This document shows, in pieces, positions 48,279 through 56,357 of a stretch of DNA of 64,000 nt; position 1 is the first letter of the stretch, and each line of letters starts with the position of its first letter. The DNA is from Deltaproteobacteria bacterium (GTDB taxonomy: Bacteria > Myxococcota > Kuafuiibacteriia > Kuafuiibacteriales > Kuafuiibacteriaceae). Below the pieces are notes generated by a model. The model saw nothing but the letters and a program-made list of their open reading frames with translations, ran no database searches and was not told where the DNA came from. A program made the translations under genes and the position numbers. The stretch covers positions 265,140 through 329,139 of the forward strand of contig JACKEN010000001.1 in NCBI GenBank assembly GCA_020632995.1, written 5' to 3'.

Positions 48279-48516
48279 GTTGCGGAGTTGTGGCGGGGCG
48301 GAGTCCAGAAGAGGAAGGCCCGCCTAAACCCTGGGAATCAGGCTCCTTTTCGGACTTGATCGAACCGATTCCGTCCAAGTGATTTCAGAGAGTTACGCGC
48401 GTTCTGATCCAGATTGTGGATCCCGCCCGTTGTGGAGTTATCGAGCAGGATTTGGCTGGCTGCGTGGCCGATGCAGCGACTTGCAGGCCAGACCAGTCTC
48501 GACAATAATGGCGCCA

Positions 48517-48917
48517 TGACCAACGAACGGGAAGAAGCCATACGACAGCTCGTACTGGGTGCAGCAGACCCATCCATCCTCGAAGACTATGTCGCAGAGC
48601 CTGAGGCATTGATTGAGGATATTAGGGGGGTACTACGGGATTCCATGCCGACCGCTGCGAAGCCGATCGTTCTTCGGCAGGGTCGCTTGTCGCTCTCGAC
48701 TGAATCCGCAAAGTACATAGCAGTCGTAATCGCCGCGGCTGACTTGCTTCTAGGATCGATGGATGCCTACCTCGATGCGGACAAGGACGGCTTTGTGAGT
48801 GAGGATGCCGAGAAGTCGTTCCTCGAAGAAGTCCGACAGAGATGTGGGGCAGTGGCTCTTACTCCTCGTGTTCAGTTGGCGGTCGTCAAGCTGGCGGTGG
48901 TCGCGGCCGCGTTGTAG
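48517..48917 (+). CDS. Hypothetical protein encoded on the low-GC island
   Basis: The ATG at 48517 (MTNEREEAIRQL...) gives a hydrophobic C-terminus. GC is clearly lower than the chromosomal background. Confidence 0.4.
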
Positions 48918-48935
48918 TCGATGACTTCCATCGGT

Positions 48936-50123
48936 CTATCCTGGCGCCTGACCTTGCAGCGACAGCAGGGTTCGCACGTGCGCGTCGAGGCGCATAGTAG
49001 TCATCTGCAAGAATTGAATCCTTCCCCAGACTACCCATGCCAGCAATACACAGCAGAGAACAATTAACGCTACGAGCCAACTCCGATGGAAGAACTCGGG
49101 CGAGATGGTCCACGCGGCCACGAATGCGGCCGCCAGCCTGCAGCAGAAGACGAAGGGCGTAAGAAGGCGTTCGTGAATTGTCACGTGTGGCGGGATCCGC
49201 AGCCTTCTGCCAGAATTCGCGTATGCGCCAAGGAACCTCAACAACGGGAGGCGACGCTTCCCATGTAGCGCTGCGTTGGGGTCGCGGCTTTCGGCCTGGA
49301 TCTCGTGTCGTGCAATTGCTCTCTGTAGGGCGTGTGCTGCGTAGTCGGATCCGAATCTATTCTCGAGTTGACTATACGCAAAGAGATCCGCGGTCCACTC
49401 GTTTGCTGTCTTCGACTTTTCGATTAAGTAGTTGATGATCCCCGCCGATACTATCACGCAAATGGGCCATGCGCTCATTGGGAGCATCGCTGCAGGGAGG
49501 TAATATGAGAGCATTCGAGGTCCAACTAGTGCATTATTGGCGTTGTCATTGCGCGCTGCCGTAGTTGCATGCCCCAGCTCGTGATAGGCTTCATACATCA
49601 GGCCGGGTGTGTCGACGTCGGGGACGCGGTCCAAGATGAGGATGTTTGCGTCGTACTTCAGGAAGGCGACATTGTGGTGCAAACGTTCTCCAGTCTTCGA
49701 GGCTCGATAGACCTGGAGCGTTGGCCTGTCAATGGGATGTTGCAGGCATTCCAGTGCGGAGCGACCGAATATGAGGTCCGGAGATACTTCATCGAGCCTG
49801 AATCCTCTGTTGTAAATATCTTCAATGAATTTGCATGTCTCCAACGCCGTGCTTCTTGAATAGCTGGCAGCGATATAGAGATGGAAGATCAAGAGCAACC
49901 AGAGCAGAAAGGAGGCGGGAACTAGCGCAGACCACCAGTCGTGGATCGGGATTGTAAGAAGGAAAGCTGTGGGGCCGACACCGAACGCGGCCAGCCATAG
50001 TGCCGTTGCCAAGATACTCCTCAACATAGAGGAGGCAACCATCGTATCATTGGCTTGGACCACAGAGGGTAGTTTCCACCAGCAGCGAGCCAATTGAAAG
50101 GGTGTGTTTTCAACAACGGTCAT
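48936..50123 (-). CDS. Polytopic membrane protein with a HELGH (HExxH) zinc-metalloprotease-like motif (M48/HtpX-like), encoded on the low-GC island
   Basis: The ATG is at 50123 (MTVVENTPFQ...). There are about 6 TM helices. YHELGHATTAA lies between TM2 and TM3. The upstream 100 codons of the track ORF are a high-GC read-through artefact. Confidence 0.55.
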   Translation of the reverse strand: MTVVENTPFQLARCWWKLPSVVQANDTMVASSMLRSILATALWLAAFGVGPTAFLLTIPIHDWWSALVPASFLLWLLLIFHLYIAASYSRSTALETCKFIEDIYNRGFRLDEVSPDLIFGRSALECLQHPIDRPTLQVYRASKTGERLHHNVAFLKYDANILILDRVPDVDTPGLMYEAYHELGHATTAARNDNANNALVGPRMLSYYLPAAMLPMSAWPICVIVSAGIINYLIEKSKTANEWTADLFAYSQLENRFGSDYAAHALQRAIARHEIQAESRDPNAALHGKRRLPLLRFLGAYANSGRRLRIPPHVTIHERLLTPFVFCCRLAAAFVAAWTISPEFFHRSWLVALIVLCCVLLAWVVWGRIQFLQMTTMRLDAHVRTLLSLQGQAPG

Positions 50124-50481
50124 GGCGCTCGAACGCAGCTCGGGCCCGGCTCCAAGCGTCGTAGGTGCGCCTCCCGGTGCCAGGCGGCCCCGTAGGCAGC
50201 GCTGCGCGCAGCCGCCGGTTCCTACGTGCCTGGTGCAGGATTCGCAACCTTTGAAAGGGTCTCGGCAGGTCAAGGGGCGGTGCCGCCGGGTCGTGACCAG
50301 ACGCGGGCCCAACTCCCCCGCCCACAGACCTCCTTCCCAAGTGGCAGAACGGGGCTCTGGTGTTTCCAGGCCTATAGGGGCTTCTGTAGGAATCGGCCCT
50401 CCATCGGCCCCTGGCGGGGTTGACCGAAAGATCAAACTCCAGTCTCATGGAGCCATAGCTAGCGGGCAAAGAAGAACGACA

Positions 50482-51531
50482 ATGGAACCGACGATTCGTA
50501 CATTCAGAGACTATGCGTCCGATTCGATTGGGAATTTGGTTCTCGGGGAGGGGTTCCCGCCGGATCCGGATATCCGTCCGGGGATAATTGCCATCCTTGA
50601 TGTTCTCTCTGCATACTTTGAGGAAGGAAAAAGATTGTATCCTGAGGTTGTTGTAACCTCCTCGATCGATGGATTGGTTGCGTTTCTCCCTGGGTATCGG
50701 ATCGTGATGGTCGGGGAAGGGCCGCCTGAGCAGGGGACTTATCAGAAGGCGCTCAAGACCTGCGCCCCGCTCGCCCAGAATGGCTGGGCAATCGCGTTGC
50801 AGGTCTCTTCCGAGCGCCTTAAGTACGGGATTCTGACGGCCGAGACGTCTCCGATAAGCCCCGCGCTGTGGAGGCTGGTCGTCGGAGATCTTGCTGAGTA
50901 TGGATCTGATCCTGAGCCTCGTGTTGCGATGCTTCGCTCGTTGGGGCAGAATACTGTTGAGATTCGTGGAAGGAGGGCTGCCTTGCAGCTGGTCTTCTCG
51001 GTTCGTGTCGCTGCTCCGCACGATGCATCTCCCAGAGATGTGGTCCTTGATCAACTGGTGCGAGACATAGGTGAGGAGTCAAGAGACAAGGTCAGAGCGT
51101 TTCTGCAGCGTGTCCTTGAGGATGCCTTTCGCGGTGGTCACGGCTGCCTAATTGGAGTCGTGGATGATGCGGACGACTCCGTGCGCGGACTTAGGCAGGA
51201 TTTTCCGGATGCGCACCACCTCAGTGTCCCAATTTCGCTCGGCAAGGTGCTTGTGGAATGCGAGACACAGAATACCATTCGGAGCGCAACCGAGCTTCGG
51301 TTGGCTGCTGAAGTGGTTACCAACATGATAAACCACGATGGAATTGCGGTCTTTACGTCAAGTGGGAGACTGATTGCATTCAACCTCTTCGTGCCGAAGC
51401 CTGATGAAGTGAGAACGATGGGCGGGGCCCGTTCTCGTGCCTTTGAGCAGATGAGAAGCTCGAGCAGGTTCATTTGTTGTTTTATACGGTCGCAGGATGG
51501 TGCGATGCGTGTTTGGAGGTCCCAACAGTGA
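50482..51531 (+). CDS. Hypothetical protein with a divergent diadenylate-cyclase (DAC/DisA_N)-like C-terminal domain, encoded on the low-GC island
   Basis: GHGCLIGVVDD, then HDGIAVFTSSGRLIAFNLF, then GGARSRAFEQM, then SRFICCFIRSQDGAMRV align to GALIVIE ... HDGAVII ... GTRHRAALGIS ... TIVVSEETGGISL of CdaA/DisA. The RHR is replaced by RSR. The ATG is at 50482. Confidence 0.5.
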   Translation: MEPTIRTFRDYASDSIGNLVLGEGFPPDPDIRPGIIAILDVLSAYFEEGKRLYPEVVVTSSIDGLVAFLPGYRIVMVGEGPPEQGTYQKALKTCAPLAQNGWAIALQVSSERLKYGILTAETSPISPALWRLVVGDLAEYGSDPEPRVAMLRSLGQNTVEIRGRRAALQLVFSVRVAAPHDASPRDVVLDQLVRDIGEESRDKVRAFLQRVLEDAFRGGHGCLIGVVDDADDSVRGLRQDFPDAHHLSVPISLGKVLVECETQNTIRSATELRLAAEVVTNMINHDGIAVFTSSGRLIAFNLFVPKPDEVRTMGGARSRAFEQMRSSSRFICCFIRSQDGAMRVWRSQQ

Positions 51532-52844
51532 CGGAAAAGAGTCTGGTGCCGTGGGTCGGGCCTGAAGGGTTGGCTCTTCCCCCGTCGATAAGAGAGCCGT
51601 CCGAAATCCTGCGGTACGCGGTTGCGCTGAAGCCTGCCGACCAACTGCGAATAGTCTCGGCGTTTGCGAGCGGTCATGAAGACATGGCAGCCGAGTTCGT
51701 CTGGAGGCGGTCGATGACTCGATTGCGCGATAATCTCGCGCAGTTGGGAATGCGTTTCGTAGGGGAGATGCTGGATCGAGAGGATGTCGATGAGTCCAGT
51801 TCGCCCGCGAATGTGCTGACAGACTATGACTCGATTCGCTTGGCGGAGGCGCTTGGTGTGGTGAATGCGACTGGGGCATTGCGACTTCGGCATGCTCTAG
51901 AACTCATTACGCATTTTGCATCTGGGGAGACCGAAGAGCAGCTCGGGCATATCGACGCAGTCCAAACGGTACGAGCTTGTGTTCAGTACCTGTTGGGTTC
52001 CGAGGATATCAGGGCCTCGGTGGACTTCTCCGAGTTTCGGGAGCGCTTGCTCACGGAATCCATCCAGTCTGATGATGGTGCTTTTGAGCGCCTACGTGCC
52101 TCGCCCGTCTTTTTCGTGCGAACGACGCTCCGGACCTTGCTCGCTGCGGTAAAATCCGAACATGGTGCTCGCCTTGAGCATGCGCTCAACAATCTCGTGA
52201 CTGCGCTGCCAATCGTTTGGGATCCGCTCCCTGAAACTGACCGGTGGTCAGTTGGAATGGCGTATTCTGAAGCATCGGCATTTGGCAATGAAGAGGCGAT
52301 GACCGCACTAAAACGTGGTCTCATTCGTGTTCGTGGATTTGACTACGTGCCCGAGGATCTCAGGTCTCGCACGTTCAAGAAGGCGGCGCAGGCGGTAATG
52401 GCTGCGCATCATGGATGGAACAACTTTTACAACGAGCCTGGTCCGACGCGGTACCTCAGCGGGCTGGGAACTACCATTCCGCCGGCAGCGCTTGCTGAGT
52501 GCATGCAGGCATATTTGTCCGTCTATCTCGGGAATAGATATGGTGTTTCGTGGGATGCGGCATCTGTTTCTCTTGATGTTCTGAAGGGCGTCCCTGAAAG
52601 CCGCTGGCAGTACTATCTGGAAAAGATGCTCGTCGTCGATGATGAGGTGCTTCGAAAGCTCACGCAATCAAGGCCAGTTGGGCGATTCTGTGAACTGGCG
52701 GATGAATTGGGCTTGGCCAACAAGGTGAATGGCTCCTCGGATATCTTCGCCCTTCTGCAGGCTGCAGAGAAACGGAATACTGTCCGCGTTCAATCTCGCG
52801 CAGAGAAGCTCCTTCAGAACATGGGGAGCGCGGCTGGTTCGTAG
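51528..52844 (+). CDS. Hypothetical protein (about 438 aa, helical) whose GTG start overlaps the TGA stop of the upstream gene. Encoded on the low-GC island.
   Basis: A GTGA start/stop overlap at 51528-51531 suggests translational coupling. No domain is recognised. Confidence 0.5.
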   Translation: MTEKSLVPWVGPEGLALPPSIREPSEILRYAVALKPADQLRIVSAFASGHEDMAAEFVWRRSMTRLRDNLAQLGMRFVGEMLDREDVDESSSPANVLTDYDSIRLAEALGVVNATGALRLRHALELITHFASGETEEQLGHIDAVQTVRACVQYLLGSEDIRASVDFSEFRERLLTESIQSDDGAFERLRASPVFFVRTTLRTLLAAVKSEHGARLEHALNNLVTALPIVWDPLPETDRWSVGMAYSEASAFGNEEAMTALKRGLIRVRGFDYVPEDLRSRTFKKAAQAVMAAHHGWNNFYNEPGPTRYLSGLGTTIPPAALAECMQAYLSVYLGNRYGVSWDAASVSLDVLKGVPESRWQYYLEKMLVVDDEVLRKLTQSRPVGRFCELADELGLANKVNGSSDIFALLQAAEKRNTVRVQSRAEKLLQNMGSAAGS

Positions 52845-52857
52845 GTCTGAAGACCTC

Positions 52858-55064: not shown

Positions 55065-56357
55065 GTGACGACCGCGCTCCTGGCTCAAAAAAGATCTTCC
55101 GGGCCCGGGCTCGCCCCGTATAGTACGCGCGCCTTGTCCGAGCCGTTTGGATCCTTCGAGCTGCTGCGCCTGTTGGGCCGCGGTGGCATGGCCGAGGCTT
55201 TCATCGCCCAGCACAGCCCCGACGAGCACCCGCTGGTGCTGAAGCGGATCCGCCCCGACTACGCGCACAACGAGGAGTACCTGCGGCGCTTCGTGCTCGA
55301 GGCGCAGGTCGCGTCGCGCCTGCACCACCCGAACCTGGCGAGCTTCCGCGAGTTCGGGCGGGTAGGGCGCTGCCACTACCTCGTGATGGACATGGTGCGC
55401 GGGCACAGCCTGCACCGGCTCCTCGACGTGGTGTTCCTGCAGCAGGAGCCGCCGCCCCTCACCGTGGCGATGGCGCTGTCGGCCGGCATCCTCGACGGGC
55501 TCGCCGCGATGCACGCGGTGAAGGACGAGGCGGGGCGCCCGCGGCCGATGCTCCACCGCGACGTCACCCCCTCGAACGTGATCGTGGCCCAGGACGGGCA
55601 CCCGGTGATCATCGACTTCGGAATCACCAAGGACGTGCTCGGGCCCGCCATCACCCTGCCGGGCAAGGTGATCGGCACCGCGCGCTACATGTCGCCCGAG
55701 CACAGGAAGGCCGAGTACATCGACACCCGCGCCGACGTGTTCTCGGCCAGCGTGATCCTGTACGAGCTCCTCTTCGGCAAGCACCCCTGGCCGCCCCTCA
55801 ACACGATGAAGGAGCTCTTGCGGGTGACCTTCGATCCGCCGGAGATCACCGACGCGATGTCCGCGCACGTGCCGCGCGAGATCATCGACGTGGTCCTGAA
55901 GGGGCTGGCCAACGATCCCGCGGATCGCTTCACCGACGCGGCCGAGATGCGGGACGCCCTGTTCGCGTGCAAGACGTGCCCGCGCCAGCTGAACGCCGAG
56001 CGCCTCCACGAGGTGGCGGCCTGGGTCGACACCCTGAACCTGCCCCTCGACGAGGATCTGTCCCGGCCCGTGGTCGACCTGGTCGACGCCACGGGCGAGG
56101 AGGAGGTCATGTGGACGTCCTCCGGGAGCCTCTCCACCGACGAGGCGTGGGCCGAGGATCCGACCCTGCCGCCCTCCCAGCCCCTCACCGTGCCCCCGCT
56201 CCCGCCCCCTCGGGCCGCCGCCCTGGTCGAGGCCGGGGGCACCGAGGAGGTCGACGTGAAGGCGGCCCTGGGAACAACCCTGCCCGCCAAGCTCATCGGC
56301 ATCGGTGTGGCCTTGCTCACACTCGGCGGCCTGGTCTGGCTCTTCCTGGACTCGTAA
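55065..56357 (+). CDS. Ser/Thr protein kinase (cytoplasmic kinase domain plus a C-terminal TM)
   Basis: The motifs are GRGGMAEAF, LHRDVTPSNVIV, IIDFGITK, SPEH and DVFSASVILYELL. The C-terminal hydrophobic segment is LIGIGVALLTLGGLVWLFL. Confidence 0.85.
   Translation: MTTALLAQKRSSGPGLAPYSTRALSEPFGSFELLRLLGRGGMAEAFIAQHSPDEHPLVLKRIRPDYAHNEEYLRRFVLEAQVASRLHHPNLASFREFGRVGRCHYLVMDMVRGHSLHRLLDVVFLQQEPPPLTVAMALSAGILDGLAAMHAVKDEAGRPRPMLHRDVTPSNVIVAQDGHPVIIDFGITKDVLGPAITLPGKVIGTARYMSPEHRKAEYIDTRADVFSASVILYELLFGKHPWPPLNTMKELLRVTFDPPEITDAMSAHVPREIIDVVLKGLANDPADRFTDAAEMRDALFACKTCPRQLNAERLHEVAAWVDTLNLPLDEDLSRPVVDLVDATGEEEVMWTSSGSLSTDEAWAEDPTLPPSQPLTVPPLPPPRAAALVEAGGTEEVDVKAALGTTLPAKLIGIGVALLTLGGLVWLFLDS

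What the first reader, a model, noticed from the sequence alone, without database searches (positions are those of the whole stretch)
50482..51531. Divergent diadenylate-cyclase-like (DAC) domain in an island protein
The C-terminal roughly 150 aa of this 349-aa protein line up motif by motif with the DAC (DisA_N/CdaA) fold. GHGCLIGVVDD corresponds to GALIVIE. HDGIAVF corresponds to HDGAVII (the DGA motif). About 29 aa later comes GGARSRAFE, which corresponds to GTRHRAAL (the RHR motif, here RSR). It then ends with SRFICCFIRSQDGAMRV, which corresponds to TIVVSEETGGISL. The DGA-to-RHR spacing is conserved, but the catalytic His is replaced by Ser and the N-terminal 180 aa are unrelated to CdaA or DisA. 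This could be a nucleotide second-messenger synthase of altered specificity, or an inactivated sensor. It sits on a foreign island and is coupled to an unknown partner gene.
Basis: inference. Interest (0 to 1): 0.75.

Follow-up and report, generated by a model that had tools for sequence, protein, structure and literature searches.

The report
Divergent DAC-fold enzyme in mobile cassette
The gene really does encode a distant relative of the enzymes that make the bacterial signal c-di-AMP, and it is half of a widespread, horizontally moving, unannotated two-gene cassette that looks like a new kind of anti-phage defence module.

Summary

Pfam, NCBIfam and PADLOC do not recognise the family, which has at least 750 clusters at 50% identity. 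It is always translationally coupled to a 438-aa all-helical partner: 80 of 80 genomes from more than 10 phyla, and 17 of 19 loci found from the DAC side.

The partner descends from solo HEPN RNases that carry RNxxSAAH, but it has lost that motif. In other genomes the same module is fused to a caspase, a metallophosphoesterase or a PD-T4-6-type kinase domain.

Best reading: this is a mobile defence cassette in which the helical module is the constant sensor or regulator and the DAC-like protein is the interchangeable output enzyme. Its product and target are unknown. It belongs to neither Panoptoo nor CBASS-DAC.

The parts
48280..52850 (.). Low-GC horizontally acquired island holding four ORFs, including the cassette
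   Evidence: GC is 0.51-0.60 inside against 0.67-0.77 outside. GC3 is 0.58-0.63 for the island genes against 0.93-0.94 for the flanking host genes. No tRNA, integrase or flanking repeats were found.
50482..51531 (+). Gene for the 349-aa DAC-like protein (NCBI H6730_01360)
   Evidence: Translation. There is a 100% match to an annotated hypothetical protein. The family has at least 750 clusters at 50% identity, nearly all 340-355 aa.
50482..51066 (+). N-terminal alpha/beta domain (aa 1-195) of unknown fold family. Conserved: Y45 (60 of 61), E47, E48, P54, K92 (60 of 61), W102
51067..51528 (+). DAC-fold domain (aa 196-349)
51139..51144 (+). Invariant H220-G221 at the start of strand beta1 (HGxLIAV), aligned to GALI(V) of DAC
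   Evidence: Invariant in 61 of 61 sequences. Aligned by hhalign.
51337..51342 (+). Invariant D286-G287, equivalent to the DG of the DGA motif. The Ala is replaced by Ile or Val
   Evidence: D and G are each 61 of 61. Position 288 is I41/V16. hhalign pairs sDGIt with DGAv.
51421..51438 (+). G314-G315-A316-R317-S318-R319, equivalent to G-T-R-H-R. R317 is invariant, the His position is variable, and R319 is kept in 54 of 61
   Evidence: PanS has GGR here.
51490..51501 (+). S337-Q338-D339-G340, aligned to the VS(EETG) strand of CdaA. S, D and G are invariant
51528..51531 (+). GTGA, where the partner's GTG start overlaps the DAC-like gene's TGA stop (translational coupling)
   Evidence: Sequence. 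The same tight or overlapping junction occurs in nearly all related loci.
51528..52844 (+). Gene for the 438-aa all-helical partner (NCBI H6730_01365), a HEPN-derived constant module
51867..51920 (+). Partner helix aa 114-131 (TGALRLRHALELITHF), which aligns with the Rx6H catalytic helix of the solo relatives. The catalytic R and H are lost. R/K119, Q/H122, E/D125 and H129 are conserved instead
   Evidence: MAFFT and hhalign alignments and column counts.
52335..52439 (+). Partner signature GFDYVPE-LRS ... AH--NNFYNEP (aa 270-304). D272, E276, R279, S280, H294, N299 and E303 are invariant
   Evidence: The residues are also kept in caspase, phosphoesterase and kinase fusions. AH..NNFYNEP and LGNxYG are shared with the solo HEPN relatives.

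Best explanation
The 349-aa protein has two domains: an uncharacterised alpha/beta N-terminal domain and a highly divergent but genuine DAC-fold domain. The DAC-fold domain keeps the core catalytic constellation (D-G, G-x-R, S-x-D), so it is most likely an active nucleotidyltransferase or cyclase (inferred).

It is the upstream gene of an obligatory, translationally coupled, horizontally mobile two-gene cassette (shown). Its partner is a soluble all-helical protein that descends from solo HEPN ribonucleases but has lost the Rx6H catalytic motif (shown by alignment).

In other genomes the same helical module, with the same invariant residues, is covalently fused to a caspase, a calcineurin-like phosphoesterase or a PD-T4-6-type Ser/Thr kinase instead of being paired with the DAC-like protein (shown). 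The helical module is therefore most likely the constant sensor or regulator of a family of abortive-infection-type anti-phage systems. The DAC-like protein would fill the interchangeable output-enzyme slot (inferred).

Proposed mechanism: the two proteins form a complex. On a phage-derived or stress cue the partner releases or activates the DAC-like enzyme. No third gene is conserved. The reaction itself, or its product acting on host targets, would therefore arrest the infected cell. That reaction could be NTP consumption, synthesis of a c-di-AMP-like cyclic dinucleotide, or transfer of an NMP to a 3'-OH acceptor. This last step is speculative.
For: DAC fold and motifs:
- hhalign P=1.1e-5 with motifs in register.
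- D286, G287, R317, S337, D339 and G340 are invariant in 61 diverse members.
- The same D, G, G, R set makes the conserved catalytic contacts in the PanS structure, and mutating the DGF and GGR motifs of VcPanS abolishes product formation.

Obligatory pair:
- The DAC-like gene lies upstream of the partner in 80 of 80 species-representative genomes found through the partner, directly adjacent in all but a few.
- The partner lies directly downstream in 17 of 19 metagenome loci found through the DAC-like protein. One of the two exceptions was too short to tell.
- Start and stop codons overlap.
- No conserved third gene was found.

Mobility and defence context:
- GC3 of 0.6 against 0.93 in the host genes.
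- The cassette occurs in more than 10 phyla.
- Neighbours include type I R-M, GmrSD, TIR, SLATT, patatin, NERD, SIR2-pAgo, Mads, integrases and IS200.
- It sits next to putAbiC, next to BsuBI/Eco57I R-M on a Vibrio plasmid, as Tn7-like cargo beside HEPN_LA2681 and AbiH in B. cytotoxicus, and on prophage-like IMG/VR contigs.

Partner is a HEPN-derived constant module:
- Solo relatives carry RN(Y/W/N)(A/F)SAAH, and the homologous helix in the partner lacks the R and H.
- Fusions exist to Peptidase_C14 (about 100 clusters), Metallophos and protein kinase.
- The fused domains match known defence effectors: PD-T4-6 at E=3e-83, and PDC-S60 or the CBASS endonuclease effector.
- All module invariants are retained in the fusions.
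- The C. difficile caspase fusion stands alone in a mobile element.
Against: - No enzymatic activity, phage phenotype or protein-protein interaction has been tested.
- Pfam DAC is below threshold, and a profile search of PDB sequences found nothing.
- The Ala of DGA and the His of RHR are not kept. DAC catalysis needs head-to-head dimers, which I could not model.
- A DAC enzyme acting as a terminal effector has no precedent. Known defence DACs make signals for a receptor.
- The effector-slot argument is by analogy, and the direction of control between the two proteins is not established.
- Defence-gene enrichment among neighbours was counted, not statistically tested.
- One divergent DAC-like gene is followed by a Fic protein instead of the partner.
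Confidence: 0.45

Rival explanations
1. Classical signal-and-receptor logic, as in CBASS or Panoptoo. The DAC-like protein senses infection through its N-domain, or works constitutively as a decoy, and makes a cyclic (di)nucleotide. The helical partner binds this nucleotide and is the effector, for example through a remodelled HEPN cleft.
Against: The partner has no recognisable nucleotide-sensor domain (CARF, SAVED, STING, S2TM-beta), no TM segment and no Rx4-6H motif. The same module, with the same invariant residues including that helix face, works with fused caspase, kinase or phosphoesterase domains in loci that have no cyclase. Its conserved sites are therefore not specific to a DAC product.
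Confidence: 0.22
2. A toxin-antitoxin-like pair analogous to MNT-HEPN. The upstream nucleotidyltransferase, here of DAC fold, neutralises the downstream HEPN-like protein by nucleotidylation or by stoichiometric binding, or the roles are reversed.
Against: The HEPN catalytic motif is lost in the DAC-linked branch, so there is no obvious toxin activity to neutralise. No conserved Tyr sits next to the motif: position 130 is F38/Y10. The DAC fold has no known protein-nucleotidylating member. The fusions to caspase or kinase do not fit a toxin-antitoxin logic.
Confidence: 0.08
3. The DAC-like domain is catalytically dead and serves as a nucleotide-binding (ATP or c-di-AMP) or purely structural regulatory domain. 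The real activity would lie in the N-terminal domain (invariant E47, E48 and W102, near-invariant K92) or in the partner.
For: The canonical Ala of DGA and His of RHR are replaced. Pfam DAC is sub-threshold. The N-domain has its own conserved acidic and basic residues.
Against: Purifying selection keeps exactly the residues that contact phosphates and metal in active DACs (D, G, G-x-R, S-x-acid) in 61 of 61 or 60 of 61 sequences. PanS is active with DGF and GGR. In M. tuberculosis DisA, G73A of DGA retained activity and only the whole RHR-to-AAA change killed it.
Confidence: 0.15
4. The DAC resemblance is a chance or convergent similarity and the domain is not homologous to DAC.
For: The single-sequence Pfam E-value is only 0.028. 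There are no PDB sequence hits.
Against: Two structure-search methods rank only DAC domains at the top. Profile-profile P=1e-5 puts four motifs in the same order and spacing. Five of 61 members independently hit PF02457, and no other family recurs.
Confidence: 0.03

Closest known systems
Canonical diadenylate cyclases (DisA, CdaA/DacA, CdaS, CdaM; Pfam PF02457 DAC/DisA_N)
   Different: Below the Pfam threshold. Ala of DGA becomes Ile or Val. His of RHR is variable (Ser here). An invariant His precedes the GxLI strand. A helical insertion of about 30 aa lies before the DG strand. The N-terminal domain is new. The gene is not a housekeeping gene but island cargo, and it is obligatorily paired with a HEPN-derived protein. 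The product is unknown.
Panoptoo (PanS minimal DAC + PanE S2TM-beta effector; Ragucci et al., bioRxiv 10.64898/2026.08.10.743927)
   Same: A divergent DAC in a two-gene defence-island operon, with relaxed motifs (PanS DGF and GGR against DG(I/V) and G-A-R here).
   Different: PanS is about 150 aa with a DAC domain only and is found through the Pfam signature. Its partner is a two-TM beta-rich membrane effector. Here the protein is 349 aa with an extra N-domain. The partner is soluble, all-helical and HEPN-derived, with no TM segment.
CBASS-DAC / DS-2 (DS-2C: DACNG + DACNH + DAC, with cGAS-like cyclase and patatin)
   Same: A multi-domain DAC protein with N-terminal non-catalytic domains, implicated in phage defence.
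   Different: No DACNG or DACNH match even at E<=10. The protein is about 350 aa rather than about 550. There is no conserved cGAS or patatin neighbour. The partner family is different.
HEPN ribonuclease modules (MNT-HEPN toxin-antitoxins, Abi-type HEPN proteins, Csm6/RnlA)
   Different: The Rx6H motif is lost in the DAC-linked and fused branch. The protein is 438 aa, with a large conserved C-terminal helical domain (AH..NNFYNEP, LGNxYG). It matches no Pfam HEPN family. The NTase has the DAC fold, not the Pol-beta fold.
Single-protein defence systems with an N-terminal effector and a C-terminal regulatory region (e.g. the PD-T4-6 Ser/Thr kinase)
   Same: The kinase domain fused to the partner module matches PD-T4-6 models at E=3e-83. 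The phosphoesterase fusion matches PDC-S60 and a CBASS endonuclease effector. The logic of effector swapping on a constant core is the same.
   Different: The constant core here is the HEPN-derived module, which is absent from PADLOC. In the window's version the enzyme is a separate polypeptide of DAC fold.

Membership tests
DAC / DisA_N (PF02457) | Scores above the Pfam gathering threshold (27 bits) | tested here: not met
   14.4 bits, E=0.028. Only 5 of 61 relatives give even sub-threshold hits, best E=1.8e-4.
DAC / DisA_N (PF02457) | DAC alpha/beta fold | tested here: met
DAC / DisA_N (PF02457) | DGA motif | tested here: inconclusive
   D286 and G287 are invariant, but the Ala is replaced by I41/V16 of 61. 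PanS is active with DGF.
DAC / DisA_N (PF02457) | RHR motif | tested here: not met
   The motif here is R317-S318-R319. Across the family the His position is R22/S18/T12/H2. R317 is invariant and R319 is kept in 54 of 61.
DAC / DisA_N (PF02457) | Head-to-head DAC dimer and synthesis of c-di-AMP from two ATP | not testable with these tools
   Needs a multimer model or biochemistry.
Panoptoo (PanS/PanE) | Minimal DAC-only synthase of about 150 aa | tested here: not met
   The protein is 349 aa with a conserved 195-aa N-domain.
Panoptoo (PanS/PanE) | Adjacent S2TM-beta (Cap15-like) membrane effector | tested here: not met
   The partner is all-alpha, has no TM segment (maximum KD19 0.93) and gives no Pfam hit.
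CBASS-DAC (DS-2C) | [quoted passage not shown] | tested here: not met
   No such Pfam hits at E<=10. No conserved neighbour. Patatin appears in only 2 of 150 immediate neighbours.
HEPN RNase (partner protein) | HEPN four-helix fold | tested here: met
HEPN RNase (partner protein) | Rx4-6H catalytic motif | tested here: not met
   The homologous helix reads (R/K)L(R/K)(Q/H)xxExxxHF. The catalytic R and H of the solo relatives (RNxxSAAH) align to I127 and position 134.
MNT-HEPN toxin-antitoxin | Pol-beta-fold MNT nucleotidyltransferase paired with a catalytically competent HEPN toxin | tested here: not met
   The upstream protein has the DAC fold. The HEPN motif is absent.
Anti-phage defence system (generic) | Enrichment next to known defence genes and on mobile elements | tested here: inconclusive
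   Many defence neighbours were counted, but there was no statistical background model and no phage assay.

The most novel reading that the evidence does not exclude
The DAC fold is used here as the terminal effector of an immune system, not as a second-messenger synthase. In this reading, a HEPN-derived sensor module that elsewhere drives a caspase, a kinase or a phosphoesterase unleashes the DAC-like enzyme. The enzyme then kills or arrests the cell by draining NTPs, by flooding it with a c-di-AMP-like molecule, or by adding nucleotides to the 3'-OH of an RNA, DNA or protein target. This would be a new biochemical role for the DAC fold. It would also define a previously unrecognised, phylum-spanning family of effector-swapping defence systems built on a degenerate HEPN core.
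Probability: 0.3. Interest if true: 0.85.

Novelty: new variant of a known kind. Interest (0 to 1): 0.72.

Why it matters
DAC enzymes were linked to phage defence only in 2025-2026 (CBASS-DAC, Panoptoo), through searches based on the Pfam DAC signature. This family is invisible to that signature. It is nevertheless large, with at least 750 clusters at 50% identity, and it spans Bacteroidota, Pseudomonadota, Bacillota, Acidobacteriota, Planctomycetota, Verrucomicrobiota, Cyanobacteria, Actinomycetota and others.

If the enzyme is active, the family adds a third, architecturally distinct class of immune DAC-like enzymes, possibly with a new product or acceptor. It also brings to light an unannotated HEPN-derived core module. 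That module pairs with caspase, kinase, phosphoesterase or DAC-like enzymes, which gives a natural handle for asking how one sensor scaffold controls very different outputs.

Cassettes from cultivable hosts make this directly testable. Examples are Pantoea sp. FN060301, Bacillus cytotoxicus, the Vibrio sp. dhg plasmid, Burkholderia ubonensis and Ferruginibacter albus.

Tried and rejected
- Sequence-only searches of the target against solved structures found nothing. This covers the full-length profile and the C-terminal domain alone. NCBIfam, PHROGs and PADLOC also gave nothing meaningful for the target.
- I looked for island borders (tRNA, direct or inverted repeats) and for promoters or terminators. 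Nothing exceeded chance.
- I looked for DAC-like/partner fusions among unusually long family members. The extensions are only low-complexity Pro/Ala tails or insertions.
- I looked for a conserved third gene by clustering 424 neighbouring ORFs and found none.
- The cassette was not found in INPHARED phage genomes by tblastn, despite a PHROG hit for the partner. It was not found in complete E. coli genomes at the DNA level.
- The partner and its solo relatives match no Pfam family, including every Pfam HEPN family. The profile against PDB sequences found nothing.
- Galperin's 2023 DAC architecture survey (PMC10127676) and the companion Nabhani/Sullivan preprint were not retrievable. I could not check whether either mentions this family. 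Full-text searches for DAC with HEPN or for DAC-like families found no description of it.
- The search for related loci with the 61-sequence alignment failed because it lacked a conserved peptide stretch.
Full report
**1. The observation**

The ATG at 50482 is the true start. Homologues begin at the same Met, and NCBI annotates an identical 349-aa hypothetical protein (H6730_01360) on a 2.2-Mb contig of a 'Deltaproteobacteria bacterium' MAG.

The gene lies in a 4.6-kb stretch (about 48280-52850) of 51-60% GC inside a 70-77% GC genome. GC3 of the four island ORFs is 0.58-0.63, against 0.93-0.94 for the host genes on either side. The downstream gene starts with a GTG that overlaps the TGA stop (GTGA, 51528-51531). 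The island has no tRNA, integrase or terminal repeats.

**2. Is it a DAC domain?**

On its own the protein gives only a sub-threshold Pfam DAC hit: E=0.028, 14.4 bits against a cut-off of 27, aa 267-347 on profile positions 35-116. Sequence searches against PDB chains find nothing. Three independent lines show the similarity is real.

- Among 61 diverse relatives, DAC is the only Pfam family hit more than once (5 members, best E=1.8e-4).
- A profile of the family's C-terminal 154 columns was aligned with hhalign to six solved DAC sequences taken from PDB search output. The result is 82% probability and P=1.1e-5. It pairs HGxLIAV with GALI(V), sDG(I/V) with DGA, GGARxRA with GTRHRA and fRSQDG with the VS(EETG) strand.

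The N-terminal 195 residues form a separate alpha/beta domain. It has no detectable relation to DAC, to the C-terminal domain or to any library family.

**3. Is the active site intact?**

A HMMER profile search of 1.84 billion representatives finds 750 clusters (E<=1e-3; 437 at E<=1e-30). Nearly all are 340-355 aa. The word-indexed search had found only 20.

In 61 spread-out members the invariant residues are E47, E48, P54 and W102 in the N-domain. In the DAC domain they are H220, G221, D286, G287, R317, S337, D339 and G340. G315 and K92 are kept in 60 of 61 and R319 in 54 of 61. The position of the RHR histidine is free (R22/S18/T12/H2), and the Ala of DGA is Ile or Val.

The literature calls DGA and RHR the ligand-binding motifs. 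However, the defence DAC PanS is active with DGF and GGR, and its structure singles out D71, G72, G107 and R108 as the conserved catalytic contacts. These correspond to D286, G287, G315 and R317 here. The conservation pattern argues for a working nucleotide site (inference).

I could not inspect model coordinates. The adjacency of the motifs is therefore inferred from the superpositions, and the idea that invariant H220 replaces the lost His is only a hypothesis.

**4. The partner and the operon**

The downstream gene (51528-52844) encodes a 438-aa protein (H6730_01365). It is more conserved than the DAC-like protein (mean column identity 51% against 33%).

A scan of one genome per species with the partner alignment kept the best 80 loci (of 173 confirmed relatives). 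They come from Bacteroidota, Pseudomonadota, Bacillota, Acidobacteriota, Planctomycetota, Verrucomicrobiota, Gemmatimonadota, Cyanobacteria, Actinomycetota, Nitrospirota-like and other lineages. All 80 have a DAC-like gene upstream on the same strand. In most the gap between HMM envelopes is under 25 nt. In a few the DAC-like match is truncated or displaced (L051, L071, L075, L084).

The reverse scan of metagenome contigs, from the DAC-like side, gave the partner directly downstream in 17 of 19 loci. One exception is too short to tell. The other has a Fic-domain gene downstream instead.

Clustering 424 neighbouring ORFs reveals no third conserved gene. The unit is therefore a self-contained, translationally coupled gene pair.

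**5. Context**

The flanks differ everywhere and are rich in mobile and defence genes. Among 150 immediate neighbours are type I R-M subunits, ResIII, GmrSD, TIR, SLATT, patatin, NERD, three SIR2-pAgo proteins, Mads components, integrases and IS200 transposases. Individual cases:

- putAbiC and resolvases in Ferruginibacter albus
- an integrase island in Burkholderia ubonensis
- a BsuBI/Eco57I R-M system on a Vibrio plasmid
- Tn7-like cargo beside HEPN_LA2681 and AbiH in Bacillus cytotoxicus
- three prophage-like IMG/VR contigs

This is the signature of a defence or conflict cassette. I did not compute an enrichment statistic.

**6. What the partner is**

No Pfam family matches. Distant solo relatives occur on plasmids of C. 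perfringens, Pantoea, Streptomyces, Rhizobium and Sphingopyxis. They share 21-24% identity, have no DAC-like neighbour, and are clearly homologous (hhalign 99.8%, E=1.9e-29). All carry a textbook HEPN motif, RN(Y/W/N)(A/F)SAAH.

In both MAFFT and hhalign, that helix aligns with partner residues 114-131. There the catalytic Arg and His are gone. Instead R/K119, Q/H122, E/D125 and H129 are conserved on one helical face. The superfamily-wide signature lies in the C-terminal half: AH294..NNFYNE303P and LGN336xYG339.

**7. Effector swapping**

One IMG/VR locus (L096) lacks the DAC-like gene. Instead it encodes a 694-aa protein whose N-terminus is a caspase domain (Peptidase_C14, E=1.4e-13, GHG...DACHSG) fused to the partner module.

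A database search with this protein shows about 100 clusters of such caspase fusions in Clostridia. It also shows fusions to calcineurin-like phosphoesterases (790-816 aa) and to a protein kinase (727 aa). In the same hit list are ordinary stand-alone partners of about 430 aa. Only one of these, the B. cytotoxicus protein, was checked and found to be DAC-linked. Its partner is 42% identical to the caspase-fused module.

The fused domains are bona fide defence effector types. The kinase matches PD-T4-6 at E=3e-83. The phosphoesterase matches PDC-S60 and a CBASS endonuclease effector. The C. difficile caspase fusion is a lone gene in a recombinase-bearing element.

All residues invariant in DAC-linked partners are also kept in the fusions: W9, W59, E80, R119, E125, R171, N222, GFD272, E276, R279, S280, H294, N299, E303 and GN336. 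H129 is kept in most.

The helical module thus has an autonomous, constant role, and the enzyme attached to it is interchangeable.

**8. Mechanism**

The best-supported reading is a family of abortive-infection-type systems. A HEPN-derived module has lost its own RNase site and acts as the constant sensor or regulator. The effector role has passed to a swappable enzyme. In the window's version that enzyme is a separate DAC-fold nucleotidyltransferase with its own docking or regulatory N-domain.

Shown: the fold, the conservation, the obligatory pairing, the mobility, the loss of the HEPN motif and the domain swaps. Inferred: catalysis, complex formation, the direction of control, the defence role and the nature of the output.

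Because no receptor gene is conserved, the DAC-like reaction would have to act directly or on host targets. It could do so by NTP depletion, by overload of a c-di-AMP-like product, or by nucleotidylation of a 3'-OH acceptor. This has no precedent for the DAC fold and is the most novel possibility.

The main rival is the classical scheme in which the DAC-like protein makes a signal that the partner reads. It fits every known defence DAC. It is weakened because the partner's conserved sites are the same in cyclase-free fusions. A toxin-antitoxin scheme of MNT-HEPN type and a dead-domain scheme are less likely, for the reasons given under the rival explanations.

**9. Comparison with known systems and novelty**

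The domain works like, and is homologous to, DAC enzymes. It fails the Pfam threshold and lacks the canonical RHR His, so it is best described as a new, divergent DAC-like family rather than a PF02457 member.

It is not Panoptoo, which has a 150-aa PanS and a membrane S2TM-beta PanE. It is not CBASS-DAC, which has a DACNG-DACNH-DAC protein with cGAS and patatin. The defence-DAC study I could read searched by Pfam signature, which would have missed this family. Full-text searches found no description of the family or of the helical module. Two relevant papers could not be read.

I rate it a new variant of a known kind (DAC-type enzymes in mobile immune cassettes). There is a realistic chance that its logic, with a DAC fold as effector on a degenerate HEPN scaffold, is new.

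Noticed in passing
window 48936-50126 (-) and 48516-48917 (+): The same low-GC island carries two more ORFs. One is a ~396-aa multi-TM protein with an HExxH motif (YHELGHA; maximum KD19 2.63). The other is a 133-aa ORF. Neither matches Pfam, NCBIfam, PADLOC or PHROGs, and neither is conserved next to the cassette elsewhere.
   Followed up: partly
L117:140-991 and 1101-2219 (Ga0209629_10139550): The most divergent DAC-like homologue (283 aa, lacking the first ~80 residues) is followed by a 372-aa Fic-domain protein (HPFSDGNGRMAR) rather than the helical partner. This may be an alternative pairing.
   Followed up: partly
L056, L069, L077 (gene immediately downstream of the cassette); L096:4012-7146: Long SIR2-pAgo proteins of about 1050 aa sit directly next to the cassette in three genomes, on the same strand. 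One also sits directly upstream of the caspase-module fusion. This could be a shared hotspot or a functional link.
   Followed up: no
L008:4785-6203, L009:4821-6236, L090:3740-5185, L091:3803-5125, L092:3803-5125: An unannotated family of solo proteins of 440-480 aa carries a canonical HEPN motif (RNxxSAAH) and the AH..NNFYNEP and LGNxYG signatures. It occurs on plasmids, including 12-kb C. perfringens plasmids. It matches no Pfam or PADLOC model and is probably an undescribed Abi-type RNase.
   Followed up: partly
L099:6001-8142 (C. difficile), P0289-P0388: A large clostridial family annotated only as 'caspase family protein' is in fact a caspase fused to the degenerate-HEPN module. It is encoded as a lone gene in recombinase-bearing elements.
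   Followed up: partly
L051, L075, L084, L071: In a few genomes the DAC-like gene is truncated or frameshifted (L051, L075, L084) or separated from the partner by about 5 kb (L071). These suggest decay or an insertion.
   Followed up: no
window 51528-52844; phrog_27609: The partner matches a PHROG of unknown function (E=1.4e-20). Even so, tblastn finds no copy in 50,697 GenBank phage genomes. Only prophage-like IMG/VR contigs carry it.
   Followed up: partly
window 55065-56357 (+): Just outside the island, a host gene encodes a Ser/Thr protein-kinase-like protein (HRDVTPSN, DFG) with a C-terminal TM segment. This is typical myxobacterial content and unrelated to the finding.
   Followed up: no
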